Part shown: piece by piece, positions 38,722 through 54,766 of the stretch
How the letters are laid out: each line of letters opens with the position of its first letter
Position numbering within the stretch: the stretch's first letter is position 1
Assembly (NCBI GenBank): GCA_947626175.1
Contig: CANQRE010000001.1
Location: 1-54,766 of the forward strand
Length of the DNA stretch: 54,766 nucleotides
Reading direction: 5' to 3'
DNA from: an uncultured Clostridia bacterium
GTDB lineage: Bacteria > Bacillota > Clostridia > Christensenellales > UBA1242
Made by a program: the position numbers and the translations under genes
Notes under the pieces: generated by a model
What the model was told of the DNA's origin: nothing
Databases searched by the model: none
What the model saw: the letters and a program-made list of their open reading frames with translations, nothing else

Positions 38722-38865
38722 GTTGATTGGCTTATCTTGCTTTAAATTTAAAATTGTAACAAAATTTTAGTTATTGTTAATTTGCTTTATTATAAAGATT
38801 TTGTTATACTACAAATGATAAGACTTGGTCATTTATTTTCTTGTTGTTTGATGGAGATGGCGATA

Positions 38866-41948: not shown

Positions 41949-42307
41949 AAAACGATCAAAATGTTGCGGTAGCCAAATGTAAGGAACTTGTTAAAAATTT
42001 TTGTAGTGAAAGAGATTGGGATCAGTTTCATAATCCAAAAGAACTTGCAATAGGCATTTCCACTGAAGCCAACGAATTGCTTCAAATTTTTAGATTTAAG
42101 TCCGAAGAAGAAATGAATGCCATGCTTAATAGTGACAAAAGAAAAAAGATCGAAGAAGAACTTGCAGATGTGTTTTACTTTGTGCTTCGTTTTGCCCAAA
42201 TGAATGACATTGACTTATATACTATATTGTCCAACAAAATAGCTGTTAATAGTCAAAAATATCCTGTTGACAAAGCCAAAGGCAGCAATAAAAAATATAA
42301 CGAGTAG
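41945..42307 (+). CDS. MazG-like / DCTPP1-type all-alpha nucleoside-triphosphate pyrophosphohydrolase
   Basis: 120 aa counted from the ATG at 41945, which forms an ATGA overlap with the upstream stop. RDWDQFHNPKELAIGISTEANELLQIF and EEELADVFYFVLRFA blocks, plus a C-terminal KYP. Confidence 0.8.
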   Translation: MKNDQNVAVAKCKELVKNFCSERDWDQFHNPKELAIGISTEANELLQIFRFKSEEEMNAMLNSDKRKKIEEELADVFYFVLRFAQMNDIDLYTILSNKIAVNSQKYPVDKAKGSNKKYNE

Positions 42308-42482: not shown

Positions 42483-42550
42483 GAAATTATCTTACCATTC
42501 CACCTCTTGTCAAGCACCTTTCACGGCATAAAGTTAGCCACTATATGATT

Positions 42551-43231
42551 TTATGATTTTATAAGACTATCGAAGAATTGATAGAACTCATTAAATCTTT
42601 TTACTAAATCATCTAAAAAAATCTTAATTGGTTTTGCTTTGTAGTTGAATTTATGCGACTCGTCATCACGTAGTCTTATAACGGAAATACTAGGCTCTCT
42701 ATCGAACCCTTCAAATTGACAATCAATAATAGAATGTTTGTCGGCATTATCAAGATTGTTTAATAATTCTAGGAAATATTTATGGTCATCAAACTCTTTA
42801 AGTTCTATTTCATTATTTAAATATTGACCTATTGATTCAGGAGGATTGTTGTTTTTTCGAAATTTTTGTTTTGCTACTGAATAAAGAGTTAGACAATCTT
42901 TAACAACTTTACTTAAACCCGCTATGAATTCTTCTTTTGAATATTGACTATTAATTAATGTTTTCTGCCATATCTGATGTTTTTGTGTTGTTTCAATAAC
43001 ACTCAATGCAGTTGAAGTGTCAATAGATGGTTCATCAATTAACAGTTTCGTCTCTGACCACAATATTTTTATTTTATCATTTAAATATATCATACGACTT
43101 ACAATACCAAAATGTTTAAGTTCGAAATTAAAAAATGTATTGTATTTATCGTCTTTATATTTATCTGGTAAAAACCTCGCATTATATGTCTGCCCACCAT
43201 CTATCGAGTCAATTATTTTTATTATTTCCAA
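42551..43231 (-). CDS. Hypothetical protein co-transcribed downstream of the serine recombinase
   Basis: 226 aa with a TTG start preceded by AAGGGGG, 39 nt after the recombinase stop. No motif I can name. Confidence 0.5.
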   Translation of the reverse strand: MEIIKIIDSIDGGQTYNARFLPDKYKDDKYNTFFNFELKHFGIVSRMIYLNDKIKILWSETKLLIDEPSIDTSTALSVIETTQKHQIWQKTLINSQYSKEEFIAGLSKVVKDCLTLYSVAKQKFRKNNNPPESIGQYLNNEIELKEFDDHKYFLELLNNLDNADKHSIIDCQFEGFDREPSISVIRLRDDESHKFNYKAKPIKIFLDDLVKRFNEFYQFFDSLIKS

Positions 43232-43270
43232 AATACCCCCTTAAAACAAAAACCTAAACCGGGGTTCGAT

Positions 43271-44812
43271 TTAGGTTTTGATTGGCGGACTGCTAGGGTC
43301 TTTATACGCACCCTTTTTAATATTATTAACAGCCATTTCTGGCTGTTTTATTTCGCCCTCAACTTCTTCTATATTATCAGGTTTTGTTTTATTTGTCAAA
43401 TGCTTTTCGGTGAAGTTATAGGTTATAACTATTTTGTCATGATAAACAATAATTTCTCTAATAAAGAATCTTGTTATCATTTTGCGGATTTCCATATTTG
43501 CAATATCTCCACAAACTGTTTGCCTGAAATAATCTTTTATCAGTTCCGGAGTTAGATAAGAGTAATTTCTTTGTTTTGCTTGTTCTATATCAAAATCCAA
43601 CTGCATGATCTGATTTTCCAATTCTTTCAGTCTTATCTTTGTTTGCTCTGTAATTATTCCTTGCTCAATAGCTGAAATTAAATTGTTTGATGCCTTTAAT
43701 GCTTCACTGCGTTTTTTCTCAAGTGATTTTATTGTTGCGTTGCTTTCATTGTTTGATTGATGAAATTTACATAAATCTTTTATCAAGTTGTCTATCTCAT
43801 TGTTATCGTAAATCATCTCCCATGTTTTTTGAAATATTATGTTTTCTAAATATTCTTTTGTTATTGAAGCTGTTTGACATTGATGTTTTTGCCTTCGTTT
43901 CGACAAGCAAGAATAGTAGTGATATTCCGTTCCCCATCTATTGATTGATTTTACTCCAACCATAAATTCTTTACAATCTCCACAAATAAGTTTGCCAGAT
44001 AATACATAATTGTATCTTTCTTTTTTGCTGCCGGGTTTATGCTTATTTGAATTTCTTATTGCTTGAACGGTTTGCCAAGTTTTTTCATCAATAATTGCTG
44101 GATAAATGTTTGTATAAATTTTCTCACCATGCTGGACTATGCCGATATATTTTGTATTTTCCAAAATCTTGTAAACTCGCTTGTCATCAATATAATGTCC
44201 TCGTTTTGTTCTTATGCCTCTGTCTATTAAGTTTTTAGCAATATTTTTCCCTGTTTCGCCATTTGCAAAGCGAGTAAAAATTTCTTTTACAATTAAAGCT
44301 TCGCTTTCGTCTATTATGTTTTTCTTATCAACAACTTTGTAGCCAAATATTTGAAATCCACCTGTATATTGTCCTTTCAAATAACTTTCATTTAGTCCTC
44401 TATGAACTTTTTGTGAAAGCTCTGCTGAATAATATTGATTCATGCCTTCAAGTAAGCTTTCAAGTATAATTCCTTCTGGTGTGTCAGGTATGTTTTCCAT
44501 AGCTGATATAACTTTAACTCCATTGTTGTTTAGAGTGTGCTTGTGGATTGTTGTTTCATATTTGTTTCGTGAAAATCTATCTAACTTATAAACTAACACA
44601 TAATCCCATTGTCTTTTATTGCTATCCTTAATCATGCGTTGAAAATCTGGTCGCAAGTCATTTGTTCCTGTCATCGCACGATCAATGTAAGTATCCACAA
44701 CTAAAATATCATTATTTTTTGCAAAATCTTGACAAACTCTTAATTGTCCTTCAATAGATTGTTCTGTTTGACTATCACTTGAATATCTTGCGTAAATAAC
44801 TGCTGTTTTCAT
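43271..44812 (-). CDS. Large serine recombinase (resolvase/invertase N-domain, recombinase domain, zinc ribbon, coiled coil)
   Basis: 513 aa. Catalytic N-terminus VIYARYSSDSQ, then VYKLDRFSRN, a Cys cluster CGDC...C...C, and a long coiled-coil C-terminus. AAGGAGG RBS. Confidence 0.93.
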   Translation of the reverse strand: MKTAVIYARYSSDSQTEQSIEGQLRVCQDFAKNNDILVVDTYIDRAMTGTNDLRPDFQRMIKDSNKRQWDYVLVYKLDRFSRNKYETTIHKHTLNNNGVKVISAMENIPDTPEGIILESLLEGMNQYYSAELSQKVHRGLNESYLKGQYTGGFQIFGYKVVDKKNIIDESEALIVKEIFTRFANGETGKNIAKNLIDRGIRTKRGHYIDDKRVYKILENTKYIGIVQHGEKIYTNIYPAIIDEKTWQTVQAIRNSNKHKPGSKKERYNYVLSGKLICGDCKEFMVGVKSINRWGTEYHYYSCLSKRRQKHQCQTASITKEYLENIIFQKTWEMIYDNNEIDNLIKDLCKFHQSNNESNATIKSLEKKRSEALKASNNLISAIEQGIITEQTKIRLKELENQIMQLDFDIEQAKQRNYSYLTPELIKDYFRQTVCGDIANMEIRKMITRFFIREIIVYHDKIVITYNFTEKHLTNKTKPDNIEEVEGEIKQPEMAVNNIKKGAYKDPSSPPIKT

Positions 44813-44875
44813 ATTATTTTGTGCCTCCTTTTACAATTTTTAAATTTACTACATTTTTTGGATTGAAAACAGAAA

Positions 44876-44930
44876 GTTTACCCAAACTTGAGCCAAACTT
44901 TACCCAAGTTTTCCTAAACTTTACCCAAAC
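44876..44930 (-). repeat. Three minus-oriented copies of the TTTGGGTAAA(G/C)TTT motif
   Basis: On the plus strand: GTTTACCCAAAC (44876-44887), ACTTTACCCAAG (44897-44908) and ACTTTACCCAAAC (44918-44930), in the recombinase upstream region. Confidence 0.75.
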
Positions 44931-45167
44931 TTTTTCTAAACTTAACATACATACAAACTCCTTTTTTTATCGAATTTTTTTCGATACTTCTTGACTATCA
45001 AAATGGGACAGACATATCAAAGAAATAGAAAAAAATATTGTCTTTATAATTTTTTAATTTTTGTTTGCTCGAGCAACATTTTTTTCCTTTGAGATGGATG
45101 GAGCATTTTGATACGCTCCTAAACGAAAAAAAAGATAAGGCCAAAAAGGAAAAAAGGAGTTTGTTAA

Positions 45168-45250
45168 GTTTGGGTAAATTTGGGGTTTTGTTGGGGTTTT
45201 CTTTGGGTAAACTTGTTTTTATTTTGGGTTTTGTTGGGGTAAAGTTTCTG
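45168..45250 (+). repeat. Plus-oriented G/T-rich motif block ending in copy 1 of a 28-nt perfect repeat
   Basis: GTTTGGGTAAA (45168-45178), TTTGGGTAAAC (45202-45212), and TTTGGGTTTTGTTGGGGTAAAGTTTCTG (45223-45250). Forms an imperfect inverted repeat with 44870-44945. Confidence 0.8.
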
Positions 45251-45302
45251 TTAAAGTTTTCTTATTTGTTGTAAAGTTAAGGCATCAAGACGGAGGCAAA
45301 TT

Positions 45303-45482
45303 ATGTGTAAGAAAACTGAAAAAGAAAAAGAGATCTTAACAATAGGTGCACCAAAGATTTCTGCTCTTTCAAAGAACGATTACAACACTTTTATCTCTTG
45401 TCTTGAGTTCCAAATTAGAGAGTTTTATAAGGAAAAAGAAAAGAAAGTTGAAAATAATTCTTCAACTGACAAAAAAGGATAA
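45303..45482 (+). CDS. Small hypothetical protein (59 aa, below the track cutoff)
   Basis: My own translation gives MCKKTEKEKEILTIGAPKISALSKNDYNTFISCLEFQIREFYKEKEKKVENNSSTDKKG. GGAGG RBS 7 nt upstream. Confidence 0.45.
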   Translation: MCKKTEKEKEILTIGAPKISALSKNDYNTFISCLEFQIREFYKEKEKKVENNSSTDKKG

Positions 45483-45622
45483 AAGAAGTCATATTATTCG
45501 GCATAAAATTACACTTTTCTAATTGACTTTGTGTTAAAATTTTAGTGTAAAATTTTAAAGAAAAATCCGATTTAGCTTTCCTACTAATTTTCTAATTTCA
45601 CAACTTGATTTTAGGAGGTAAT

Positions 45623-45943
45623 ATGAAAAGTTTTTCGAGTATAAGAGAAGATTTAAAAGACATAAGATATTACTATATGAGAAAAGAAGATTTTGATAAG
45701 GCTTTTTCGACTACCGGTGAAAATATCATTTTGAAAAAAGTCCATCAATATCACGAGGTCATGAAGCAAGCCTCTCCTAAATTGTATGATTTGTATATCT
45801 CGCTTTATATAAACTGCCATACACAAGAATCGCTTTCTGATAAGTTAGGCTTTACCCCTGAATATATACAAATGTTGAATAAGCAGTTATTGAAATACTT
45901 GCAATCTCAACTTATTACAAATGAACGGGAGTGTGCATCATGA
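45623..45943 (+). CDS. Sigma-70 region-4-like / DUF1492-like small transcriptional regulator
   Basis: 106 aa counted from the ATG at 45623, after TAGGAGG. The C-terminal LYDLYISLYINCHTQESLSDKLGFTPEYIQMLNKQLLKYLQ has the layout of a sigma region-4 HTH, as in phage and ICE late regulators. Confidence 0.6.
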   Translation: MKSFSSIREDLKDIRYYYMRKEDFDKAFSTTGENIILKKVHQYHEVMKQASPKLYDLYISLYINCHTQESLSDKLGFTPEYIQMLNKQLLKYLQSQLITNERECAS

Positions 45944-46185
45944 AAGAGTTAAGTAATTTGTTAAATGATGCTGTCAATGTTTACAGAACAAGAAAATATA
46001 TTGTTAAGCAAATTTTGGTAATTCGTGAAAGTCCAACAGAGCAAAATATTTTGTTTAGTGAAGATACTTTTTATAAACGAACAAAAACACGAGATAAGGA
46101 ATACAATATCATTTTCAAAGATAAAGACAACCTTGATGGCAAGCGTCTTCCTTCAACTTCATATAGTCGGCGTTATGTAAATTAA
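45940..46185 (+). CDS. Small hypothetical protein coupled to the regulator
   Basis: 81 aa counted from the ATG at 45940, which forms an ATGA overlap with the upstream stop. Confidence 0.5.
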   Translation: MKELSNLLNDAVNVYRTRKYIVKQILVIRESPTEQNILFSEDTFYKRTKTRDKEYNIIFKDKDNLDGKRLPSTSYSRRYVN

Positions 46186-46232
46186 AATTCCAGAGCTTAA
46201 TTGCTCTGGTTTTTTTGTTTCATATCAAAATT

Positions 46233-46328
46233 TTTGTTGGGATAAAGTTTGGGTTTTGTTGGGATTTTGTTTTGTTTTCTTTTGAAAAATTTGGGTTTTG
46301 TTTGGGTTTTGTTGGGGTAAAGTTTCTG
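46233..46328 (+). repeat. Second G/T-rich motif block ending in copy 2 of the 28-nt perfect repeat
   Basis: TTTGGGTTTTGTTGGGGTAAAGTTTCTG at 46301-46328 is identical to 45223-45250, preceded by GGGATAAAGTTTGGGTTTTGTTGGG. Confidence 0.8.
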
Positions 46329-46570
46329 GTAATAAAGCACAAATTTTTATATACTTTTCGTGTAATCAATGGCAAGGCAAAGAAAATGGCGAATGTCTTT
46401 TGCGTGAAATTTCGTAAAGGTGGCCACCTACACAAAACATCGCACAAGAACGAGTTGTTTTAAGAAAGCCCTTGCTTATGATTGCAAAATTACAACTTAA
46501 TATTTTTGTTTTTCGCTGGGTCATCGGCAAATACACGGACACAAAATCTTAATTAAAAAAGGAGAATAAA

Positions 46571-46831
46571 ATGGCTAAAAGTAAAAAGGAAAGACGCTGG
46601 TTAGTTCCTAACAAAAGAGCTAAAGGTTATGCTGAAGAACGCCATGCCAAAGTTCACCAAAGGGGTCAAAAAAATGGTCATGAGTTAACCCCTTTTGAAT
46701 CGGGAGTGAGAACGGGCTATCTTCAATGCCAAAGTGATCATGCTGGGCTTTACAGATTTAAGAAAGCTTTAAGCGAGGGTAAATCAAAAGCTGAAGCAAA
46801 AAGATACTCAAAGCAAATTGGTAGCAAGTAA
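46571..46831 (+). CDS. Small basic protein (possible DNA-binding/packaging protein)
   Basis: 86 aa, Lys/Arg-rich, with an AAGGAG RBS. First gene of the co-directional module. Confidence 0.55.
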   Translation: MAKSKKERRWLVPNKRAKGYAEERHAKVHQRGQKNGHELTPFESGVRTGYLQCQSDHAGLYRFKKALSEGKSKAEAKRYSKQIGSK

Positions 46832-46893
46832 AAAGGTTTGCTAACACCTAAAAAGTAAGCAAAAAATCTAATTTATTAAAAGGAAATATAAAA

Positions 46894-47307
46894 ATGGAAG
46901 AAAAGAAAACACAAAAAACTGCAAATGCAGTAGCAGAAACAAAAAATGTTCTTTATGTAGAACGCGAAAATTTTAAAGGTAATGATGGAAAAGACTATTG
47001 GGCATATATTGTCAGAGGCAATATTAGAGGTCGTGAAGTTAAAGTTGACTTCACACCAAAAGACAAAGGTGGATATGAGCCACTTGATATAGTTTTTGAT
47101 GTTTCTCCAAAAGCCGAATTGATTATGAGTGAGGAAAAAATGGTTGATTCAACAACAGGAAAAGTTACAAAATTCACTTCTTATAAAGTTTTGACTGTTG
47201 ATGAAGATGGAATTCCTTATGAATGTTCGATTAAGCCATCAAGAGATAGTGATAAAGCACTATTGAAAATGCTCATGAACTCCATCAATGTAAAAAATAA
47301 CAAATAA
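46894..47307 (+). CDS. Hypothetical protein (ssDNA-binding role possible but unsupported)
   Basis: 137 aa with an RBS. No motif I recognise. Confidence 0.5.
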   Translation: MEEKKTQKTANAVAETKNVLYVERENFKGNDGKDYWAYIVRGNIRGREVKVDFTPKDKGGYEPLDIVFDVSPKAELIMSEEKMVDSTTGKVTKFTSYKVLTVDEDGIPYECSIKPSRDSDKALLKMLMNSINVKNNK

Positions 47308-47321
47308 AAAGGAGAATTTTA

Positions 47322-48176
47322 ATGAGTTACAATTATAATTCTAAAATGGCTTGGTGGAAAATTGCGTTGATTGCCCTTGCCGTTATCCTTATTGTTGGTG
47401 CTTTGGCTAGTTTAATTACCAGCCTTGTCATTAACAGAGATGATGCACAAGAGGGTCAACTCTCCACAAAGGCTTATAGTGTTGGTGGGCTGAACGAAGA
47501 TGGGACTTATTTGGATACAAGAGGCAGCATTTACACAAAAGATCTTTTTAAGTGTGCTGACTTAAAGTGTTCTTTGGTTTTTGATCATAATATTTCTTAT
47601 AAAGTTTTCTTCTATGATGGAAATGAAAATTTTATGTCTTCAACTACTGCTTTGGCCGGCAATTACAGTGATGTTCCCTATGGTGCATCTTATTGTAGAA
47701 TAGTTATAACTCCTGATTCTGACCAAAATATTAAATGGTATGAAGTAAAGGGTTATGCTAAACAGCTGACAGTTGAATACAATTCAAACGCAAAGATAAC
47801 TCCTATAAAAAATGTGTTAAACTATGAGTGTGAAGATGGCACTGATTTTTACTATGACTATGAAACTCCACAAACGCAAAGTGGAAGTCAATATAAGGCT
47901 TCAAAACCTATTGCAGTTGAAGAATATACTAAAATTGTGATTTCTACAAAGGTAAAATGTTATATTCTTTATGGCGACAAAGATGGTCATAAATGCACCT
48001 CATATCGTATGGTTAGTGTTGGGCAAAATGACACTTATGTAGAGGGTCAAAACACTTTTGCCGATTTTAACACATATACTTTTGATATTCCAGAAGGTGC
48101 TGCATATTTCCGCGTCGTATGTTCTCAATCTGCTTATAGTTATGGTTATATTTCAGGTTTGTATCTAACTAAATAA
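47322..48176 (+). CDS. N-terminally membrane-anchored hypothetical protein
   Basis: 284 aa with an AAGGAG RBS. TM helix WWKIALIALAVILIVGALASLITSLVI is followed by a Tyr/Gly-rich, probably beta-rich, ectodomain. Confidence 0.6.
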   Translation: MSYNYNSKMAWWKIALIALAVILIVGALASLITSLVINRDDAQEGQLSTKAYSVGGLNEDGTYLDTRGSIYTKDLFKCADLKCSLVFDHNISYKVFFYDGNENFMSSTTALAGNYSDVPYGASYCRIVITPDSDQNIKWYEVKGYAKQLTVEYNSNAKITPIKNVLNYECEDGTDFYYDYETPQTQSGSQYKASKPIAVEEYTKIVISTKVKCYILYGDKDGHKCTSYRMVSVGQNDTYVEGQNTFADFNTYTFDIPEGAAYFRVVCSQSAYSYGYISGLYLTK

Positions 48177-48205
48177 TGTGCTATAATTGATTTGTAGGTG
48201 AAAAT

Positions 48206-48943: not shown

Positions 48944-48966
48944 AAATCTTAATTATAGGTGGTATT

Positions 48967-49524
48967 ATGGCAAAAAAGAAGAATAGTAAATTTGCTACAA
49001 TATTATCACTTATGGTTATATTGGTGTTGGTGGTCGGATTTGTCGGTCTTCTAATATTCTTTACCGACAACTTCGACACTGACTTAAAGCAATTTTATTT
49101 AAGATGCGGCAACGACATAATTGTTGCAAATAGAGATGATTTCTCTATAAAAATGAATCAAGAATATAAGTTTGAAGTTGGCAGTGAGTTAGAGGATTTA
49201 GTTGGTGAAACAGATTATCTTGTTTCGGTTATTCCTAACATTACTTCAACAACGGTCTTTACTTTTAAAGTTGATGATCAACCTGTTGATTTTGAAAGTG
49301 TGCAAAGCTTAACAAAAGGGTTTGACATCAATGCTTATGATGGTTATTTCACCTTTAAAGCAACAAAAGATCTAAAAGATATTTTGCAAATGTATTATGG
49401 TGGTAAAACAATAACCGAATGCCCTACCTATGTTGATAGTAACTTATCATATATTTCATTGGTGGTGCAAAGTAAGAAAAGCGAAGATTTTATAAGGATA
49501 AATTTATTGTTAAAAAGTGAGTAA
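48967..49524 (+). CDS. N-terminally membrane-anchored hypothetical protein
   Basis: 185 aa with TM helix FATILSLMVILVLVVGFVGLLIFF. Confidence 0.55.
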   Translation: MAKKKNSKFATILSLMVILVLVVGFVGLLIFFTDNFDTDLKQFYLRCGNDIIVANRDDFSIKMNQEYKFEVGSELEDLVGETDYLVSVIPNITSTTVFTFKVDDQPVDFESVQSLTKGFDINAYDGYFTFKATKDLKDILQMYYGGKTITECPTYVDSNLSYISLVVQSKKSEDFIRINLLLKSE

Positions 49525-49529
49525 TAAGT

Positions 49530-51032
49530 ATGGTAAATAAAAAAGTTAAAAGCTTTCTTTTATCTGCCATTTTACTTTTCTCTTGCTTGTTAATGACTTT
49601 GTTAAGCATACCAAACACAATGACCGTTCATGCTGCAAATATTGAAATAAATGGTGGCTACTCGGATGTGTTGGAAGATTTGCAAGACAATGAAAGTTTT
49701 AATCCTGATGAATATGAAATAGATCAAAATGATTTTTCTTTGAATTTTATAACTTTGGCTGAAAGCTCTGATCGTGAAGTATTTGTTTATGTTTACCAGC
49801 CATGCACTTCTCGAGGAATTGTCGCAACAACAATAAACCTTTCGACAGGGATTCACAAAAATTTAAGTTATAAAAACTATAAGCTTAAATTGATAAATCA
49901 AAGAGGTGTTTTTTACAAGTATTTGGTTGAAGATTTAGCTGTTAGTGATGAAGAAATTAGATATTATGAAATATCTTCAATTTATCGTAAATGGGATGGA
50001 AATTTGGATGATGCCGAAGCAGAGTCTGGAACAATTAGTGAAGTGCCTTTTGCAGTTGCGAAACAATATATTTTAAGGGGTTATGATGACAATATATCTT
50101 ACTCTTGTAATGATGTTGATGTCATAACCGTTACTGACAAATATGTTGGTTTTGTAAGATATGATGATGGTTATACCGGTAGTCCCGGAATGGGGTTTGC
50201 ATGGCATTCTCCCGGTAGTGATAGCCATTTTATAGCATTTTCTACCGACAAACCTATTGATAAATTGATGGAAGCTGATGTCTTTTATACTTCTCAATCT
50301 TATTATTGGCATAGTGGTTATTTAGGTATTGCTGGTGGTGAAAGCTATGGTGAAATACAGGAAAATTATGCTTATCCAACTTATAAAGATAGAGTTGAAC
50401 TTCAAGTTGGTCATGGCTTTGGTTACTACAAATATTCTTGGGATAGAATACAAACTGTTGATGAATTTATTGCAACAGAAGATAGAGAGTTCGTTTATAA
50501 TTGCGGTATTTTTAATGTAAGAACAGAAGTTAAAATGACTGATGAGGGCTTGCAGGATTTAAAAGGTAAAGATTGGGTAATTCGTTTTGCAGAAACTGAA
50601 TTTAGTGATTTTCGTCAATCTATGGGTGTTGGTGCTGCTTCTGGGCCTAGCGATCATATTAAAAGAAGCACTATTGTTGGTGATGTTACTATTTTGCGTT
50701 TGCAATTTGAAACTGATGGCATTGTTTACAATCTTGGTGTTGTTGATAATAAAATGACCGGTGATGGAATACCCGACAATTATACTGAAACAACTTTTGA
50801 GTTAACTTCTGCTTTCAAAACATTTATTGCAATATTGTTATTTATAGTTTTACTCTTGATCTTGTGGCCTGTATTACCATATATCTTTATGTTCTTTGGC
50901 TGGCTTTTGAAAGGATTGTGGAAAATTATCACCTTACCATTTAAGGTTTTCAAATCCTCGAAAAAAGACAAACGAGAGTCGCAACATGATTCGCAACAAG
51001 AAAAGCAAAAGACAGATAAAAAGAAAAAATGA
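49530..51032 (+). CDS. Type-I membrane protein (signal peptide, large ectodomain, C-terminal anchor, basic tail): spike/adhesin-like
   Basis: 500 aa. Signal peptide ending ...TVHA/AN, a C-terminal hydrophobic stretch of about 45 aa, then a KSSKKDKRESQ...KKKK tail. Confidence 0.65.
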   Translation: MVNKKVKSFLLSAILLFSCLLMTLLSIPNTMTVHAANIEINGGYSDVLEDLQDNESFNPDEYEIDQNDFSLNFITLAESSDREVFVYVYQPCTSRGIVATTINLSTGIHKNLSYKNYKLKLINQRGVFYKYLVEDLAVSDEEIRYYEISSIYRKWDGNLDDAEAESGTISEVPFAVAKQYILRGYDDNISYSCNDVDVITVTDKYVGFVRYDDGYTGSPGMGFAWHSPGSDSHFIAFSTDKPIDKLMEADVFYTSQSYYWHSGYLGIAGGESYGEIQENYAYPTYKDRVELQVGHGFGYYKYSWDRIQTVDEFIATEDREFVYNCGIFNVRTEVKMTDEGLQDLKGKDWVIRFAETEFSDFRQSMGVGAASGPSDHIKRSTIVGDVTILRLQFETDGIVYNLGVVDNKMTGDGIPDNYTETTFELTSAFKTFIAILLFIVLLLILWPVLPYIFMFFGWLLKGLWKIITLPFKVFKSSKKDKRESQHDSQQEKQKTDKKKK

Positions 51033-51117
51033 TTGTGATAAAGAGTGGTTTGCTTAATGGCACGCCACTCTTACACAATTTCTTTAATTTAATAAGGTAG
51101 TAAAAGGATAAGTGATT

Positions 51118-51210
51118 ATGAAAAAGTTAAAGTGTATTTTATTTATTGGTTTGGGTATGATCGTTGCTTTTGTCATTGGTTACTTTATTTTTACAATGGG
51201 TCAAGTGTAA
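51118..51210 (+). CDS. 30-aa hydrophobic micro-protein (not in the ORF track)
   Basis: My own translation gives MKKLKCILFIGLGMIVAFVIGYFIFTMGQV. AAGGA RBS. Its TAA overlaps the ATG of the next gene (TAATG). Confidence 0.45.
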   Translation: MKKLKCILFIGLGMIVAFVIGYFIFTMGQV

Positions 51211-53423
51211 TGAAAGCAAAAGTTTGGTTGAAGAAAAACTATTTTCACATTATTTGCATATTGGCTTCACTTGGTTTTATTGCGTGTGCTATATGGCTCT
51301 TTCCTGATGCTTGGTTAAGAATTAAAGAAAGTGGTGTTGATATTTGGAATTCAATCAAATACTATGTTAAGCATTTATTTCGATTGGATTTTTTTGTCGA
51401 TGTAACTGTAATCAATAATTCAAATATAAATACTTCACTTGTAAACATTCCCTCTAATTTTGAAAATTTTAAGAGTTCTTGGTCGGCTTATTGGAGTATT
51501 TTTGCCACAAAAGAGAATTTTTTTGCTTATTTAGATGCAATTTCTAGGTTTTTATTGATTTTAAGTCAAGTTTTGCTCATTGTTGTTGTTCCTTTGATTA
51601 TTCTGCTTTATATCTTTTTCAAAGTTTATTTCTCTAAACACAACAACAAATATGGAATTGACACCAAACCGTTGACATTCTATAAATGGCTAACTAGAAA
51701 AACAATAGTTCCTGTAAAAAAGTTTGTTAAAAGCTTTCTTGAGTTTATGAAAGAAAACAAAATGTATATTGCTTTATGGCTTTTAATTTGGGCATGGAAT
51801 TTTAACATTTTGACAATTTTTATAGAGTTTTTGGCATTTTACTTCTATTTTGTGATGTCTTTTGATTTCAGCTGCATTTATACACAGTTTTATAAATTGT
51901 TCTGCGATCTTTCAGTTCCTTTTTCTACTATACCACTTTTTGTTTATATCATTTTTGGTATTTGGCTTATTTGCTGGTATAGGAAAAAGATTGGCTACAA
52001 AAGACTTTGGCATTATGAAAGAAAAAACTGTGGATTTATCAATGAACGACCTATTGTTGTGATGGTTTGTGGGACAATGGGCAAAAAGAAAACAACTGCA
52101 ATAACCGACATGGCTCTTTCACAAGAAGTTATGTTAAAAGACAAGGCTTTTGAAAAAATACTTGAAAATGATTTGAAATTCCCTGCATTCCCGTTTATAC
52201 ATTTTGAAAACGCAATAAAAGATGCGATGCGTAAACACAAAATTTACAATCTTGCAACCTGCCGGCAATATGTGAGAAAGTTATCAAATATGTTCTACGC
52301 TTCATTGAATGTTGATAAATCATGTCAAAAGTCAATTAAACGCAATGTAAAAAAGTGTTTTGGCCTAACCTATGACAATTTGATATTTGATTATGATTTT
52401 GCTCGGTATGGTTTGACTTATGATGACAAATTGAAAGTTGTGGATATATGGACTGTGCTTGAAACTTATGCACAACTTTATTTCATATATATAATTCAGT
52501 CATCTTTAATTATTTCAAATTATAGTGTTAGGACGGACAATTTGCTTGATGATTTAGGCAATTTTCCTATGTGGAATACAGATTTCTTTAAGCGTGATAG
52601 TCGATTGATTGACAGCTATTCAAGACATGCCCATATAATTGATTTTGATGCTTTGAGGCTTGGTAAAAAGGTTATAGAAAATAATCCTAAAAAAGACAGC
52701 TTTGAATTTGGTGTTATCAACATAACGGAAGTTGGTAAAGAAAGAAAAAATCAACTTGAATTGAAAGAAATTAAAAGAAGTGGCGAGTCAGCGAATCAAA
52801 AGAACGATGGCTTTATTGATTGGCTTAAAATGATTAGGCACTCTGCAACTGTGGATAATTTCCCTTTTGTTAAAGTCATAACTGATGAACAGCGTCCTGA
52901 AAGTCTTGGTGCTGATGCCAGAGATTTGTGCGAAATTGTCCACATAAAAGAGTCTGGCGAGATCAAACTTGCCATGCCATTTTTTAGTCTAACGGAACTT
53001 TGTTACTCCTTCATTTTCAATAAATTTTCTGATTTGTATTATAGGTATCGTTTTGTTCGTGGTGATAACACTTTGATTATGTATCTATTTAAGGGTTTGG
53101 TTTCTAAACTTGATAGTTACTATCATGGTATTTACAACACATTTGGTTATAGTAAATTAAAAGTTGCAGTTGAGAACGGAACACAAGACGGGATTATAAA
53201 ATTACAAAACTACTATTTAATGTCAAAGAAAATTTATAGCAAAAGATTTAGCACAGACTGTTTCAGTGATTATTTTGAAAAGAAAAATTTACAGAGTAAT
53301 TTGGGTATTGATGATTTGGAAGAATATGGAACGGAAAAAGCAACTTTTGATGAGTTAAAGCAACAAAACAGTTATTTCATAAATGATTTGATAGAAAAGC
53401 AAAATACGGATAAAAACGAATAA
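51210..53423 (+). CDS. Polytopic membrane protein with a C-terminal putative P-loop NTPase domain (deviant Walker A)
   Basis: 737 aa counted from the ATG at 51210. About five N-terminal TM helices, then VVMVCGTMGKKKTT (52071-52094), i.e. GxxGKKKT rather than GxxxxGK[ST]. A hydrophobic-strand-plus-E candidate Walker B reads FGVINITEVG. Confidence 0.6.
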   Translation: MKAKVWLKKNYFHIICILASLGFIACAIWLFPDAWLRIKESGVDIWNSIKYYVKHLFRLDFFVDVTVINNSNINTSLVNIPSNFENFKSSWSAYWSIFATKENFFAYLDAISRFLLILSQVLLIVVVPLIILLYIFFKVYFSKHNNKYGIDTKPLTFYKWLTRKTIVPVKKFVKSFLEFMKENKMYIALWLLIWAWNFNILTIFIEFLAFYFYFVMSFDFSCIYTQFYKLFCDLSVPFSTIPLFVYIIFGIWLICWYRKKIGYKRLWHYERKNCGFINERPIVVMVCGTMGKKKTTAITDMALSQEVMLKDKAFEKILENDLKFPAFPFIHFENAIKDAMRKHKIYNLATCRQYVRKLSNMFYASLNVDKSCQKSIKRNVKKCFGLTYDNLIFDYDFARYGLTYDDKLKVVDIWTVLETYAQLYFIYIIQSSLIISNYSVRTDNLLDDLGNFPMWNTDFFKRDSRLIDSYSRHAHIIDFDALRLGKKVIENNPKKDSFEFGVINITEVGKERKNQLELKEIKRSGESANQKNDGFIDWLKMIRHSATVDNFPFVKVITDEQRPESLGADARDLCEIVHIKESGEIKLAMPFFSLTELCYSFIFNKFSDLYYRYRFVRGDNTLIMYLFKGLVSKLDSYYHGIYNTFGYSKLKVAVENGTQDGIIKLQNYYLMSKKIYSKRFSTDCFSDYFEKKNLQSNLGIDDLEEYGTEKATFDELKQQNSYFINDLIEKQNTDKNE

Positions 53424-53450
53424 AAACATGAAAATTTTAGTAAAACAGAG

Positions 53451-53478
53451 GCAAAAATGGGCTTTTTGCTTTTGTTTT
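53451..53478 (+). terminator. Hairpin/terminator between the NTPase gene and rep
   Basis: GCAAAAA-tgggc-TTTTTGC followed by a T-rich run. Confidence 0.5.
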
Positions 53479-53511
53479 GTGTAAAAAATTCAATTTTAGG
53501 AGTGATTTCGT

Positions 53512-54444
53512 ATGAAGAAAAATAACAAAGAATTAGAGCTTACACCTATCAGAAATTTCAATGATCCTTTTGGGAAATGGTGTAAGGTCTATAACGATGG
53601 AAATCATTTTGTGGCCACTCGAACAACACATAATGACAGAAAAACAATAGTTCGAGATAAAGATGTTACTGATGAAGATTTGCTCTTTAATGAGCTTTAT
53701 TTAACAGCGTGTAAAAATCATATTGTGCGTAAGCCACTTTATGAATTTATGAAAGATAATATTTCAGAAAAATATCCCGAAATGGAGAATCTTGATGAAT
53801 ATGTTGATACGCATATAAAAATGAAATTGCACAATTTTTATAGTAGAGTTAAAAGATTTAGAAGAAAAGCTTATTTGAATAATTGGAATAAATTTGTAAC
53901 TATAACCTATGACGATAAATTGCACACGCCAGAAAGTTTTAGAAAAAAGTTAAGAAAGTGTTTGTCGAATTTGCATTGTCGCCATGGCTGGACTTATATG
54001 GGCGTTTTTGAACATGCTCCCGGCACTGACAGACTTCATTTTCACGCAATTATGCACATACCTGATGGGCAAATGATTGGTGAAATGGAAGAAAAAAACG
54101 ACTATTCGACAGCCCAAAAGAAGATGCAAAAGACAATGAGTAACACTTTCTTTGCTAAAACTTTCGGTCGGAATGATTTTAAGGATATGACAGAAGAAGA
54201 TCTAAAATACGGTCATGCTATTGAGTATTTGTTAAAATATTTAAGTAAAACAAACGAAAAGATAGTTTATTCTCGTGGAATCCCTACAGAGATGAATATG
54301 TATGTGGAAAATAGAGATATTGTAACGGAATATGAAGATTATGTTATGAAATATGTTTTGTTTGATGATTGTGTAAGAAACGGAAAATATTTGCCTTATG
54401 GGCAGCGAAGATATGAACAGACAACATTATTTGCTACTACCTAA
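53512..54444 (+). CDS. Rolling-circle replication initiator (HUH endonuclease, two-tyrosine YxxKY type)
   Basis: 310 aa. Motif I FVTITYD; motif II RLHFHAIMH (HUH, from 54037); motif III EYLLKYLSK (Tyr codons at 54226 and 54238). The spacing is typical of superfamily-I Reps. TAGGAG RBS. Confidence 0.85.
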   Translation: MKKNNKELELTPIRNFNDPFGKWCKVYNDGNHFVATRTTHNDRKTIVRDKDVTDEDLLFNELYLTACKNHIVRKPLYEFMKDNISEKYPEMENLDEYVDTHIKMKLHNFYSRVKRFRRKAYLNNWNKFVTITYDDKLHTPESFRKKLRKCLSNLHCRHGWTYMGVFEHAPGTDRLHFHAIMHIPDGQMIGEMEEKNDYSTAQKKMQKTMSNTFFAKTFGRNDFKDMTEEDLKYGHAIEYLLKYLSKTNEKIVYSRGIPTEMNMYVENRDIVTEYEDYVMKYVLFDDCVRNGKYLPYGQRRYEQTTLFATT

Positions 54445-54520
54445 TGAAATTATTTAGGTGTTTTTGTTGATTTTCAAAATTAAAATTTTACGCAAACGCT
54501 TATGAAAGAAATGTAAAAAA

Positions 54521-54573
54521 CAAACAAGGGCGGTTTTCAAAAGCGGTTTAGCGTGAAAACGCCCTTTGTTTTG
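54521..54573. other. Long imperfect hairpin 1 downstream of rep
   Basis: CAAACAAGGGCGGTTTTCA pairs with TGAAAACGCCCTTTGTTTTG (about 18 bp with small bulges); 14-nt loop. Confidence 0.7.
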
Positions 54574-54599
54574 CTTTCTTTCGGCTGGGTTGAGTTAAA

Positions 54600-54658
54600 A
54601 GACGACACCTTGTCAGCGTGCGTCAGCACGCTCTCGTTAATAAGACAAGGTGTCGTCT
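54600..54658. other. Long perfect hairpin 2 downstream of rep (nested stem-loop)
   Basis: 15-bp perfect arms AGACGACACCTTGTC / GACAAGGTGTCGTCT enclose an inner 7-bp hairpin AGCGTGC-gtca-GCACGCT (54615-54632). Confidence 0.8.
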
Positions 54659-54766
54659 AATGCTCCCAAATCAAATTTTTTACTTATCAACAAAAGAAAA
54701 GTTTGCAAAATTTTTATACAAATTTAGTGCAAATATGTTATTATATTGATAGAGGTATAAATGGAA

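What the first reader, a model, noticed from the sequence alone, without database searches (positions are those of the whole stretch)
42483..54700. Integrated rolling-circle-Rep element with a large serine recombinase, many membrane proteins and no recognisable capsid: ssDNA-virus-like (inovirus/plectrovirus/pleomorphic type) or an RCR mobilisable element
Seen: a 513-aa serine recombinase on the minus strand faces a repeat-rich switch region. Beyond it lies a strictly co-directional, tightly packed gene train (46571-54444).

The train encodes, in order: an 86-aa basic protein, a 137-aa protein, three N-terminally anchored proteins (one an SGNH esterase), a 500-aa type-I membrane protein, a 30-aa hydrophobic peptide, a 737-aa polytopic protein with a P-loop-like motif, and finally an HUH Rep followed by two long hairpins. 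The Rep module is about 9.7 kb.

Established: HUH/YxxKY Reps initiate rolling-circle replication of ssDNA phages and plasmids. Small ssDNA or pleomorphic viruses (Inoviridae, Plectroviridae, archaeal Pleolipoviridae) combine a Rep, small hydrophobic coat or membrane proteins, a spike or adsorption protein with a C-terminal anchor, and a membrane-associated NTPase. Integrative mobilisable elements of Bacillota can also combine an RCR-type relaxase, a membrane-anchored coupling ATPase and a serine recombinase.

Inference: this is a prophage-like or IME-like element of a type I cannot place. The absence of any recognisable capsid, tail or VirB4 gene makes a membrane-extruded or vesicle-like virion an attractive hypothesis.
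Basis: partly seen in the sequence, partly recalled or inferred. Interest (0 to 1): 0.75.

Follow-up and report, generated by a model that had tools for sequence, protein, structure and literature searches.

The report
Mobile rolling-circle element, probable capsid-less prophage
This is a real, recently mobile ~12-kb element from a very large, completely unannotated family in gut Clostridia, and its gene layout best fits a non-lytic, membrane-extruded single-stranded-DNA phage that current virus-finding tools do not see.

Summary
The element's left end is exact, at window 43282. Near-identical copies (97-99.8% nt) in at least 10 other assemblies share sequence from that base inwards. They have at least 6 different left flanks and at least 8 different recombinase C-terminal tails, so the element has moved recently. 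The 226-aa gene and 42483-43281 are flank. The right end most likely lies about 660 nt beyond the end of the contig.

The constant core is a 185-aa anchored protein, a 500-aa type-I membrane protein, a conserved 30-aa peptide and a 737-aa membrane ATPase. The 737-aa protein occurs in at least 284 species genomes (mostly Christensenellales-like gut Clostridia) and forms 970 clusters at 50% identity. Only 1 of 2.9 million IMG/VR contigs carries it. Around this core, replication genes (two HUH Rep types) and integration genes (IS30-like, another DDE, tyrosine, serine) are swapped, as in filamentous phages.

One relative is a 13,013-bp circular contig and two are tandem arrays. The region after Rep is strongly structured in most relatives.

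The ATPase folds confidently (pLDDT 91) but matches pI/Zot only weakly, through collinear motifs.

Best reading: a divergent filamentous-type ssDNA prophage (~0.45). Rivals: a conjugation-like DNA pump, or a vesicle-type virus.

The parts
43282..54766 (.). The part of the mobile element held in the window. The left end is exact; the element most likely continues about 660 nt past the contig end.
   Evidence: Homology to independent copies L105, L107 and L108 (97-98.5% nt) starts at exactly 43282 (TTGGCGGACTGC...), with different DNA to the left in each. Four contigs from four samples end at the same base, 97 nt after the stop of the gene that starts at 54761.
43271..44812 (-). Large serine recombinase, 513 aa. 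It is the integration/excision enzyme. Its ORF runs out of the element across the left junction, so only codons 1-510 are element-encoded.
   Evidence: Resolvase + Recombinase + Zn_ribbon_recom; PHROG 95 integrase at 8e-111. Variants are identical to residue 510 (..DPSSPP) and then have at least 8 different tails.
44866..44946 (-). Iteron cluster 1: 11-nt-periodic GGGTAAAGTTT-type repeats in inverted orientation, upstream of the recombinase gene.
45166..45254 (+). Iteron cluster 2, upstream of the small regulatory genes.
45303..46185 (+). Three small soluble proteins (59 aa at 45303-45482; 106 aa at 45623-45943; 81 aa at 45940-46185), followed by a terminator-like hairpin at 46190-46209. Presumed early or regulatory genes.
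   Evidence: ORFs with ribosome-binding sites. Homologues of the 106-aa and 81-aa proteins precede the same train in L001. No family hits. Terminator-like site.
46232..46330 (+). Iteron cluster 3, upstream of the late gene train.
46571..46831 (+). 86-aa strongly basic soluble protein, a candidate DNA-binding protein.
   Evidence: 22 K+R against 8 D+E and no TM segment. 67% identical homologue at the same position in L001. No family hit.
46894..47307 (+). 137-aa conserved soluble protein. A single-stranded-DNA-binding role is inferred from position only.
   Evidence: Present in 27 of 81 loci at the head of the train; alignment A4. No hits in Pfam, PHROGs or PDB.
47322..48176 (+). 284-aa protein with an N-terminal membrane anchor and a variable ectodomain.
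   Evidence: TM segment at residues 7-40. The N-terminal part is conserved in 28 loci and often duplicated.
48206..48943 (+). 245-aa membrane-anchored SGNH/GDSL esterase. It resembles the esterase domains of phage tail fibres.
   Evidence: Lipase_GDSL_2 at 1.7e-22; PHROG 5240 tail fiber protein at 1e-33. Present in 12 loci.
48967..49524 (+). 185-aa N-terminally anchored protein; part of the constant core.
   Evidence: TM segment at residues 5-38. Present in 38 of 81 loci, always directly upstream of the 500-aa gene.
49530..51032 (+). 500-aa type-I membrane protein: signal-like N-terminus, variable middle, conserved C-terminal domain with TM and a basic tail. Candidate adsorption or terminal protein.
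   Evidence: TM segments at residues 5-33 and 422-461. Present in 55 of 81 loci, 450-740 aa long, conserved at both ends. No family hit in any of 38 members.
51118..51210 (+). 30-aa single-pass hydrophobic peptide, translationally coupled to the ATPase gene. Candidate coat subunit or pump subunit.
   Evidence: TAATG overlap. Consensus MKTFKRILWVLLGxVIxxVIGYFIYTxxxV in at least 27 loci, mostly exactly 30 aa, always directly upstream of the ATPase gene.
51210..53423 (+). 737-aa hallmark protein: an N-terminal polytopic membrane domain (about residues 1-270) and a C-terminal P-loop ATPase. Walker A is at nt 52056-52097, Walker B-like ..INITE.. at 52701-52751, and the RH..Q..R motif at 52815-52925.
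   Evidence: AlphaFold2 pLDDT 91.4, pTM 0.84. Invariant K294, E507 and R562. Only weak fold matches, to FtsK/HerA-type packaging ATPases. Collinear weak matches to pI/Zot. More than 2,900 homologues and 970 clusters at 50% identity.
53512..54444 (+). 310-aa HUH rolling-circle replication initiator with two catalytic tyrosines.
   Evidence: PF23343 at 2.2e-9. Motifs FVTITYD, HFHAIMH and YLLKYLSK. Adjacent to the ATPase gene in 41 loci.
54445..54700 (+). Structured intergenic region with two long G+C-rich hairpins (about 54527-54567 and 54598-54660). Candidate origin, single-strand origin or packaging signal.
   Evidence: z = -7.4. The 330 nt after Rep have z at or below -4 in 37 of 41 sequences (40 related loci plus the window), down to -16.
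54690..54766 (+). Start of a YdeI/OmdA-like cargo cassette: promoter-like site at 54715-54744 and ATG at 54761. The contig is cut after exactly 77 nt of a stretch that also exists in a chromosomal locus.
   Evidence: L097 and L111 continue into a 190-aa OmdA/DUF8412 gene. L121 carries a 91% identical copy without the element. Promoter-like site.

Best explanation
This is an integrated copy of a ~12-kb mobile element from a large, unannotated family whose constant core is a membrane export module. I read that module as the morphogenesis module of a non-lytic, filamentous-type ssDNA phage.

Shown:
- The serine recombinase at the left end has inserted near-identical copies at several sites.
- Relatives exist as a circle and as tandem arrays.
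- The Rep carries the full rolling-circle motif set.
- A strongly structured region follows Rep throughout the family.

Inferred mechanism:
1. After excision, or directly from tandem copies, Rep nicks an origin in or near the hairpin region and spins off single-stranded circles.
2. The basic 86-aa and 137-aa proteins bind that DNA in the cytoplasm.
3. The 737-aa protein, a polytopic membrane domain fused to an FtsK/Zot-like ATPase, works with the translationally coupled 30-aa peptide to drive the DNA out through the membrane.
4. The membrane-anchored 500-aa, 185-aa and 284-aa proteins are taken up as terminal and host-recognition proteins.
5. The anchored SGNH esterase modifies the cell wall or the receptor.
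6. The iteron clusters in front of the recombinase gene, the early genes and the late train are operator sites of a genetic switch.
For: Mobility:
- The left end is base-exact, with at least 6 distinct flanks and at least 8 recombinase tails.
- An 8-nt inverted repeat lies at matching distance from the two inferred ends (0.5% of shuffles).
- There is a circular 13,013-bp relative and two tandem arrays of 10,854-bp and 14,040-bp units.
- Element proteins occur in 23-47 sequences per 90% cluster, while host proteins of the same contig are singletons.

Replication:
- Rep matches PF23343, the family that covers inovirus G2P, and has all three RCR motifs.
- Structure after Rep is conserved in 37 of 41 sequences (the window included).
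- All genes are co-directional and tightly packed, and GC skew is +0.16 to +0.25 across 45-54 kb.

Phage-like architecture:
- The order type-I membrane protein, small hydrophobic peptide, ATPase, Rep mirrors Orf6-Orf7-Orf8-Orf9 of the Gram-positive filamentous phage B5.
- The core is constant, whereas Rep (PF23343 or Rep_OBD+SF3 helicase) and the integrase (IS30-like in 48 of 81 loci, another DDE, tyrosine, serine) are exchanged. PMC13595969 describes this as the pattern of filamentous phages, whose hallmarks are a hydrophobic alpha-helical coat protein plus an FtsK-like ATPase.
- A P-loop that follows N-terminal TM helices is also seen in plectrovirus SpV1 ORF2 and plasmavirus L2 ORF3.
- The 30-aa peptide meets the size and TM criterion used for inovirus structural proteins in PMC6813254.
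- The esterase matches phage tail-fibre esterase domains.

ATPase:
- Its best fold matches are FtsK/HerA-type virus packaging ATPases.
- Walker A and the RH..Q..R block each align separately to pI/Zot, at collinear positions. With the 313-491 insertion removed the profile comparison reaches probability 88.6%; a reversed-sequence control scores 12 against 45. The ungapped global-mode alignment also places Walker B opposite the pI LDE motif.
Against: - No member of the ATPase family hits Zot in Pfam, PHROGs or NCBIfam.
- Unmodified profile comparisons with pI/Zot stay at 32-57% probability. The 88.6% value rests on a deletion chosen after the fact.
- Foldseek found no Zot or pI structure among the listed top 50 matches of either library.
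- There is no classical 40-90-aa coat protein with a signal peptide. The 30-aa peptide is more conserved than coat proteins usually are, and its coupling to the ATPase gene suggests a pump subunit.
- The family is almost absent from virus collections: 1 of 2.9 million IMG/VR contigs and 1 GenBank phage record.
- Minimal 6.5-kb relatives keep only the peptide, the ATPase, Rep and a transposase.
- No circular junction of this particular element was found.
- No particle, ssDNA or induction data exist.
Confidence: 0.45

Rival explanations
1. Integrative element that moves by cell-to-cell DNA transfer. Rep acts as a relaxase-like nickase. The 737-aa membrane ATPase, with the 30-aa peptide, is a single-protein DNA translocase, comparable in logic to a coupling protein or to actinomycete TraB. 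The anchored surface proteins and esterase serve in mating contact and wall passage. No particle is made.
For: - The architecture of a polytopic membrane domain plus an FtsK/HerA-like ATPase is the general layout of DNA pumps.
- Minimal relatives keep the ATPase, peptide, Rep and transposase but have no surface proteins, so the pump seems to suffice.
- The family is nearly absent from virus collections.
- Coupling of the peptide to the ATPase gene fits a pump subunit.
Against: - There is no hit to any relaxase, coupling-protein, FtsK_SpoIIIE, TraG/VirD4 or VirB4 family in Pfam or NCBIfam, for the window protein or for 33 + 53 family members.
- Solved FtsK, TrwB and VirB4 structures do not appear among the fold matches.
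- Rep belongs to the ssDNA-phage type family, not to a known MOB or Rep_trans relaxase family.
- Hypervariable ectodomain proteins and a tail-fibre-like esterase are more typical of virions.
Confidence: 0.25
2. Enveloped or vesicle-type pleomorphic virus, like Plasmaviridae or Pleolipoviridae. The 500-aa type-I protein is a spike or fusion protein, the small membrane proteins sit in a host-derived envelope, and the ATPase loads the genome into budding vesicles.
For: - The inventory matches: Rep, a type-I membrane protein with a C-terminal anchor, small membrane proteins and a membrane-linked NTPase.
- Plasmavirus L2 has an ORF3 with TM helices followed by a P-loop, and envelope proteins with a signal peptide and C-terminal anchor.
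- Its genome size of 11,965 bp is similar.
Against: - No sequence similarity was found to any L2 protein.
- Budding through a walled Clostridia envelope has no precedent (my own knowledge).
- Tandem arrays, the structured region after Rep and the B5-like gene order are filamentous-phage traits.
Confidence: 0.12
3. Integrated rolling-circle plasmid, or recombinase-borne transposon, whose membrane proteins are cargo for the host (surface remodelling or transport). It has no dedicated export of its own DNA.
For: - Rep plus a structured single-strand-origin-like region is also the layout of RCR plasmids.
- Cargo is clearly carried at the right end: YdeI/OmdA-like or GNAT genes.
Against: - The membrane module, not the Rep or integrase, is the conserved identity of the family across 81 loci and at least 284 species. 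That is the reverse of what is expected for cargo.
- The ATPase keeps invariant catalytic residues across 970 clusters at 50% identity.
Confidence: 0.08

Closest known systems
Gram-positive filamentous phages (Tubulavirales: Paulinoviridae, e.g. Propionibacterium phage B5; Inoviridae in general)
   Same: - Small, co-directional genome of 5-15 kb.
- HUH Rep.
- Gene order large signal-peptide/C-anchor protein, small hydrophobic protein, membrane ATPase, Rep.
- Swappable replication and integration modules.
- Tandem prophages.
- Structured intergenic region.
   Different: - The ATPase is 737 aa, with about 270 aa of polytopic membrane domain in front and a roughly 180-aa insertion between Walker A and B. 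It is not recognised by any Zot model. pI has the ATPase first and one TM after it.
- There is no recognisable major coat protein apart from a 30-aa peptide.
- Extra anchored proteins and an esterase are present.
Plectroviridae (Spiroplasma phage SpV1-R8A2B)
   Same: - An IS30-family transposase as the integration module in most relatives (48 of 81 loci).
- A P-loop protein whose Walker A follows N-terminal TM helices (SpV1 ORF2).
- A roughly 700-aa signal-peptide/C-anchor protein (SpV1 ORF1).
   Different: - There is no significant sequence similarity (BLASTP E > 0.01; hhalign 35%, P-loop only).
- The hosts are walled Clostridia, not Mollicutes.
- The window copy uses a serine recombinase.
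IME1 elements of Dehalococcoides (bioRxiv 10.64898/2026.09.15.751708)
   Same: They were first filed as integrative mobilisable elements without capsid genes. They were re-read as budding or filamentous viruses from a pI-like ATPase plus small TM proteins. They occur both integrated and as circles.
   Different: IME1 elements are 21-28 kb, proposed to be dsDNA, restricted to Chloroflexota, and have a detectable pI-like ATPase and particles seen by microscopy. None of this is shown here.
Clostridial serine-recombinase transposons (Tn4451/Tn5397, TnpX/TndX) and multi-targeting large serine recombinases (my own knowledge, not tested)
   Same: A large serine recombinase at the very end of the element, and insertion at many sites rather than one attB.
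   Different: The cargo here is a replication-plus-export module. The recombinase ORF reads across the junction. Insertion sites lie just downstream of stem-loops, which is not described for those systems.
Plasmaviridae (Acholeplasma phage L2) and Pleolipoviridae
   Same: Size, integration, type-I envelope-like proteins, and a TM + P-loop protein.
   Different: No homology was detected. L2 is dsDNA with DnaA-box origins and no HUH Rep. The hosts lack a wall or are archaea.

Membership tests
Filamentous phages (Tubulavirales / realm Efunaviria) | pI/Zot-type (FtsK-like) morphogenesis ATPase | tested here: inconclusive
   There is no Zot hit in Pfam, PHROGs or NCBIfam for the window protein or for 33 + 53 family members. 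hhalign against 8 and 27 pI/Zot sequences gives 32-57% probability for separate local matches at collinear positions: Walker A, and the RH..Q..R block. Probability is 88.6% only after post-hoc removal of an insertion. The best fold matches are weak ones to FtsK/HerA-type packaging ATPases.
Filamentous phages (Tubulavirales / realm Efunaviria) | Small, highly hydrophobic alpha-helical major coat protein (30-90 aa, 1-2 TM) | tested here: inconclusive
   The only candidate is the conserved 30-aa single-TM peptide. Its size is at the lower limit of the criterion in PMC6813254. Its coupling to the ATPase gene and its high conservation suggest it may instead be a pump subunit.
Filamentous phages (Tubulavirales / realm Efunaviria) | Circular ssDNA genome of about 5-15 kb, extruded without lysis | not testable with these tools
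   Size fits: about 12 kb here, 6.5-14 kb in relatives, and a 13,013-bp circular contig. The Rep and the structured region imply an ssDNA stage, but no strand or particle data are available.
Filamentous phages (Tubulavirales / realm Efunaviria) | Adsorption protein with a signal peptide and C-terminal anchor, encoded upstream of the ATPase gene | tested here: met
   The 500-aa protein has TM segments at 5-33 and 422-461, a variable middle and a conserved C-terminus, and lies directly upstream in 55 of 81 loci. The same order is seen in B5. This is analogy of position and topology only; no homology is shown.
Plectroviridae | Sequence relationship to SpV1 or MV-L51 proteins | tested here: not met
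   BLASTP of all element proteins against all SpV1 ORFs translated in code 4 gave nothing below E 0.01. hhalign of the ATPase family against SpV1 ORF2 gave 35%, P-loop only.
Conjugative or mobilisable elements (ICE/IME) | Relaxase of a known MOB family or a Rep_trans-type relaxase | tested here: not met
   The only nickase is the PF23343 Rep. No relaxase family was hit in Pfam or NCBIfam.
Conjugative or mobilisable elements (ICE/IME) | Coupling protein (VirD4/TcpA/FtsK_SpoIIIE type) and a VirB4 ATPase | tested here: not met
   No such Pfam or NCBIfam hit was found for any of 86 family members or for the window protein. No second ATPase is present in the element. Fold similarity to the wider FtsK/HerA superfamily is weak.
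Large-serine-recombinase mobile elements | Resolvase + Recombinase + zinc-ribbon domains, placed at an element end next to the att site | tested here: met
   Domains. The junction is 11 nt inside the 3' end of the ORF. An inverted repeat GTATAAAG/CTTTATAC lies 18-26 nt from the two inferred ends.
Large-serine-recombinase mobile elements | Excised circular form (attP junction) | tested here: inconclusive
   The predicted junction was not found in the JGI metagenome or IMG/VR collections. The element's left end itself is also absent from the JGI metagenome collection (not checked in IMG/VR), so at least that scan could not have found the junction. None of the listed recombinase tails is encoded by the right-end sequence.
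HUH rolling-circle Rep (ssDNA-phage type) | Motifs I (uuTuxx), II (HUH) and III (YxxxY), plus a family HMM match | tested here: met
   FVTITYD at 128-134, HFHAIMH at 176-182 and YLLKYLSK at 239-246. PF23343 scored 37.9 bits against a cut-off of 27.8.
Plasmaviridae / Pleolipoviridae | Homology or fold relationship of the spike and membrane proteins | tested here: not met
   No BLASTP or HMM similarity to any L2 protein. The fold of the 500-aa protein was not tested. Pleolipovirus proteins were not compared directly.

The most novel reading that the evidence does not exclude
The 737-aa protein and its coupled 30-aa peptide form a DNA-export machine of a new kind, neither a Zot/pI morphogenesis ATPase nor a type-IV coupling protein. 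It would define a deep, previously unseen lineage of capsid-less elements (virus or transfer agent) that is common in gut Christensenellales-like Clostridia and escapes all current virus and conjugation detectors.
Probability: 0.2. Interest if true: 0.85.

Novelty: new variant of a known kind. Interest (0 to 1): 0.72.

Why it matters
If the reading holds, a common group of gut Clostridia carries a large, active population of chronic, non-lytic ssDNA phages that are missing from virome catalogues: 1 of 2.9 million IMG/VR contigs, against at least 284 host species. Christensenellales-like lineages are repeatedly linked to host health, by my own knowledge.

This would add a new morphogenesis ATPase architecture to the filamentous-phage world and extend such phages to walled Firmicutes of the gut on a large scale. 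It would also provide a ready marker, the 737-aa protein, for finding them.

The elements carry defence-type and other cargo next to their ends, and they move between sites with a low-specificity serine recombinase, which is itself of interest as a tool.

A cultured carrier exists (Pumilibacter intestinalis), so the question can be tested directly.

If the DNA-pump reading is right instead, this would be a new minimal transfer system.

Tried and rejected
- **First AlphaFold2 run.** With 33 close homologues it gave a poor model (pLDDT 65.6) and meaningless Foldseek hits. I replaced it with a 53-sequence diverse alignment.
- **PDB sequence searches.** Searches with the ATPase, 137-aa and Rep profiles found nothing.
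- **Family scans.** Scans of the 500-aa family (Pfam) and the 137-aa family (PHROGs), member by member, found nothing consistent. PADLOC found no defence family for the ATPase or the 500-aa protein.
- **The 226-aa gene and 42483-43281 as part of the element.** Rejected, because homology to other copies stops at 43282.
- **Contig NODE_1798 as the excised circle.** The predicted 517-aa recombinase length matched, but its left flank is just another insertion site and it has no terminal repeat. Rejected.
- **Right end at the hairpins.** Several contigs end at 54622-54665. These breaks scatter and lie in the inverted repeats of low-coverage assemblies, so I read them as assembly artefacts.
- **Right end at 54689, with OmdA as flank.** Considered because L121 shares 54690 onward without the element. 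Not favoured, because OmdA follows Rep in copies with different left flanks, four contigs end at one base beyond it, and the inverted repeat fits that end.
- **Fold of the region upstream of the late train (46186-46570).** Not different from shuffles.
- **Rfam and tRNA scans of the window.** Nothing found.
- **Literature.** No paper links inoviruses with Christensenellales. The UniProt entry of the best viral fold hit could not be identified.
- **Empty-site search.** A look-up by the neighbouring 432-aa protein found nothing on record.

Full report
**What is in the window**

- A 513-aa large serine recombinase (43271-44812, minus strand) has Resolvase, Recombinase and zinc-ribbon domains.
- A divergent control region holds three small genes.
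- A co-directional, tightly packed train follows at 46571-54444.

The train encodes, in order:
- an 86-aa basic protein;
- a 137-aa protein;
- three proteins with a single N-terminal membrane segment (284 aa, a 245-aa SGNH/GDSL esterase, 185 aa);
- a 500-aa protein with a signal-like N-terminus and a C-terminal membrane segment with a basic tail;
- a 30-aa hydrophobic peptide (51118-51210) whose stop codon overlaps the start of the next gene;
- a 737-aa protein with four to six membrane segments in its first 270 residues and a Walker A motif at 288-296;
- a 310-aa Rep.

The Rep passes the curated threshold of Pfam PF23343 (Replication-associated protein ORF2/G2P). It carries the three rolling-circle motifs in order, including a two-tyrosine YLLKYLSK motif. 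By my own knowledge, that motif resembles the phiX174 gpA active site.

The 256 nt after Rep fold far better than shuffles (z = -7.4). An 11-nt-periodic repeat occurs 11 times, against 1.07 expected. All copies fall in three clusters: in front of the recombinase gene, the early genes and the late train.

Nothing in the element matches a capsid, tail, terminase, VirB4, relaxase or coupling-protein family in Pfam, PHROGs or NCBIfam.

**The element is real and has moved recently**

The window is a complete 54,766-bp NCBI contig. Its housekeeping proteins are singletons in a 15-billion-protein collection. The element's proteins sit in 90% clusters of 23-47 sequences from many samples.

I fetched more than ten independent contigs that carry copies 97-99.8% identical in DNA. 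Against three of them, homology with the window begins at exactly base 43282 (TTGGCGGACTGC...), 11 nt inside the 3' end of the recombinase ORF. The DNA to the left is unrelated.

The recombinase proteins are identical up to residue 510 (...DPSSPP) and then continue into at least eight different tails. At the DNA level there are at least six distinct left flanks. One has HEPN_AbiU2 plus an 815-aa methyltransferase. One has a Vut_1 transporter. The window has the 226-aa gene and a defence-like operon.

All seven flanks examined carry a stem-loop that ends 2-11 nt before the junction, at -7.6 to -13.9 kcal/mol. Control 45-mers average -4.9, and only 7% reach -10. I cannot explain this. It may reflect selection for neutral sites behind terminators, or stacking of different elements at one site.

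**The right end**

- In longer copies, Rep and its hairpins are followed by a 190-aa YdeI/OmdA-like gene that starts at window 54761.
- This gene follows Rep in copies with different left flanks.
- Four contigs from four samples all stop at the same base, 97 nt after its stop codon.
- An exact 8-nt inverted repeat (GTATAAAG/CTTTATAC) lies 18-25 nt from that end and 19-26 nt from the left end, as expected for the two arms of a serine-recombinase attP. Only 0.5% of shuffles reach this.
- A chromosomal locus without the element (L121) shares the OmdA cassette at 91% identity, starting at window-equivalent 54690. The window contig ends exactly 77 nt into that stretch, as an assembly-graph branch at k = 77 would.

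I therefore read OmdA as captured cargo, with the element ending about 660 nt past the contig end (about 12.15 kb in all). The alternative, an end at 54689 with OmdA as flank, is not excluded. One variant carries a GNAT acetyltransferase in the same slot.

I found no circular junction for this element. However, the one collection I checked for it (JGI metagenomes) does not hold the element's left end at all; IMG/VR was scanned for the junction only.

**The family**

The 737-aa protein has more than 2,900 homologues, and none is annotated. An exhaustive search finds 970 clusters at 50% identity, nearly all 700-800 aa long.

At least 284 of 185,579 species-representative genomes encode it (the scan seeds on two conserved peptide patterns, so this is a floor). 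Almost all are gut Clostridia MAGs: Christensenellaceae and the Candidatus genera Caccovivens, Scatosoma, Gallimonas and Coproplasma. The cultured Pumilibacter intestinalis also has it. By contrast, only one of 2.9 million IMG/VR contigs and one GenBank 'phage' record carry it.

I clustered all ORFs around the gene in 81 loci. The counts were:

| Gene | Loci (of 81) |
|---|---|
| 500-aa protein | 55 |
| IS30-like DDE transposase, downstream of Rep | 48 |
| PF23343 Rep | 41 |
| 185-aa protein | 38 |
| N-terminal part of the 284-aa protein | 28 |
| 137-aa protein | 27 |
| 30-aa peptide, directly upstream of the ATPase gene | at least 27 |
| Alternative Rep (Rep_OBD plus SF3 helicase) | 17 |
| Esterase | 12 |
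| Serine recombinase (tblastn with the window LSR) | 3 |

- The 30-aa peptide has the consensus MKTFKRILWVLLGxVIxxVIGYFIYTxxxV.
- Another relative (L001) has a tyrosine integrase, a LexA-like repressor and a UmuC-like polymerase in front of the same early genes and train.
- A further one uses a different DDE transposase.

So the membrane module is the stable identity of the family, and replication and integration genes are exchanged around it.

One relative is a circular contig of 13,013 bp with a 141-nt terminal overlap. Two others are head-to-tail tandem arrays of 10,854-bp and 14,040-bp units inside large chromosomal contigs. A one-unit contig defines the ends of the 10.85-kb unit.

The 330 nt after Rep have z at or below -4 in 37 of the 41 sequences scored (40 related loci plus the window; down to -16). 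Some relatives are minimal, at about 6.5 kb. They hold small soluble proteins, the peptide, the ATPase, Rep and a transposase, with no surface proteins.

**What the 737-aa protein is**

With a diverse 53-sequence alignment, AlphaFold2 gives a confident model (pLDDT 91.4, pTM 0.84). It shows a helical membrane domain followed by an alpha/beta ATPase domain.

Foldseek finds nothing significant in the PDB. The best matches are the STIV2 B204 packaging NTPase (E 0.18), HerA and AAA+ proteins. In BFVD there is one significant match, to an unnamed 269-aa viral protein (E 6.6e-4). Weak matches follow to A32-like packaging ATPases and an Acidianus two-tailed virus protein. These point to the FtsK/HerA-type division of P-loop ATPases. 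No Zot or pI appears in the top 50 matches listed for either library.

Profile comparison with pI/Zot proteins aligns Walker A (55-57% probability). These were M13, B5, Pf1, Pf3, RSM1, fs1, SpV1 ORF2 and L2 ORF3, later extended to 27 sequences. With the deeper profile it also aligns, independently, the block WLKMIRHSATV..VITDEQR..ADARD with pI's DWFLHARKLGWDIIFLVQ..DKQARS (32%).

The two local matches are separate but collinear. In global mode, Walker B (..INITE..) also falls opposite pI's ..LVLDE... When the roughly 180-aa helical insertion between Walker A and B is removed, the comparison reaches 88.6% probability. A reversed control scores 12 against 45. That deletion was chosen after seeing the alignment, so I count this as suggestive only.

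A P-loop that follows N-terminal membrane helices, unlike M13 pI, is also what I see in plectrovirus SpV1 ORF2 and plasmavirus L2 ORF3.

**Weighing the readings**

A recent taxonomy commentary states that filamentous phages are defined by a hydrophobic alpha-helical coat protein plus an FtsK-like ATPase. It adds that their replication modules are freely replaced: Rep_trans, HUH, RepL, or IS3/IS30 transposases in plectroviruses (PMC13595969). The family here shows exactly this pattern.

Its gene order, type-I membrane protein then small hydrophobic peptide then ATPase then Rep, is that of Propionibacterium phage B5. The following also fit a chronic ssDNA phage:
- tandem arrays, which I know from CTXphi-type prophages;
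- the conserved structured region;
- the size;
- the tail-fibre-like esterase;
- the variable ectodomains.

A conceptually parallel case, IME1 of Dehalococcoides, was recently re-read from 'mobilisable element' to filamentous or budding virus on similar grounds plus microscopy.

Against this reading:
- homology of the ATPase to pI is not significant without the post-hoc deletion;
- no classical coat protein is present;
- the peptide's coupling and conservation suit a pump subunit;
- the family is nearly absent from virus catalogues;
- minimal relatives lack any surface protein. They may be satellites, or they may show that the pump alone is the functional unit.

I therefore give the filamentous-type prophage 0.45, a conjugation-like DNA pump 0.25, a vesicle-type virus 0.12 and a plasmid with cargo 0.08.

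**Novelty**

I found no description of this family. It is best placed as a new variant of a known kind: a deep, unrecognised branch of capsid-less rolling-circle elements, most likely filamentous phages, with a new ATPase architecture. Its abundance in gut Clostridia, its invisibility to current tools, the base-exact evidence of recent movement and the existence of a cultured carrier make it worth experimental follow-up.

Noticed in passing
window 38782-42307 (+): A three-gene block lies just left of the element. It encodes a GIY-YIG nuclease fused to a Schlafen-group-3/DUF2075 helicase (623 aa; PADLOC Nhi 8.9e-15, AbiO 6.8e-11), a radical-SAM protein fused to a DprA-like domain (432 aa; weak pVip and PsyrA hits), and a MazG-like pyrophosphatase. 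It looks like an anti-phage defence operon. Homologues of the first two genes lie beside another element of the family in L060.
   Followed up: partly
window 43236-43281, and the left flanks in L111, L112, L113, L114, L117 and L119: Every insertion of the element sits 2-11 nt downstream of a stem-loop (-7.6 to -13.9 kcal/mol, against a control mean of -4.9). This is an insertion-site pattern not known to me for serine recombinases.
   Followed up: partly
window 42551-43231 (-): This 226-aa ORF next to the junction has no hit in Pfam, PHROGs, NCBIfam or PADLOC. Other copies of the element have a HEPN_AbiU2 gene and an 815-aa N6-methyltransferase on the same side, so the flank may be a variable defence island or a neighbouring element.
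   Followed up: partly
window 54690-54766; L121 342-1038: A YdeI/OmdA-like gene with its promoter is shared at 91% identity between the element and a chromosomal locus that lacks the element. The contig ends exactly 77 nt into the shared stretch, which probably explains why the assembly stops here.
   Followed up: yes
L002-L007 (Logan contigs): These are minimal 6.5-kb relatives holding only small soluble proteins, the 32-aa peptide, a 713-aa ATPase, Rep and an IS30-like transposase. L002 carries two diverged copies in tandem. They may be satellites of the full-size elements.
   Followed up: partly
L046 1308-2429: The circular 13-kb relative has a different Rep, with a Rep_OBD nuclease domain fused to a superfamily-3 helicase. 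This architecture is better known from eukaryotic CRESS-DNA viruses and some plasmids.
   Followed up: no
L087 (SpV1 ORF2) and L096 (L2 ORF3): The plectrovirus SpV1 ORF2 and the plasmavirus L2 ORF3 both have N-terminal membrane helices followed directly by a Walker A motif, with similar surrounding sequence (..WWLW..). This suggests that the two Mollicutes virus families share a pI-like protein.
   Followed up: no
L001 516-4622 (MT835493.1): A relative deposited as 'Bacteriophage sp.' from human faeces has a tyrosine integrase, a LexA-like S24 repressor and a UmuC-like polymerase upstream of the same early genes. This hints at SOS-controlled induction in that branch.
   Followed up: no
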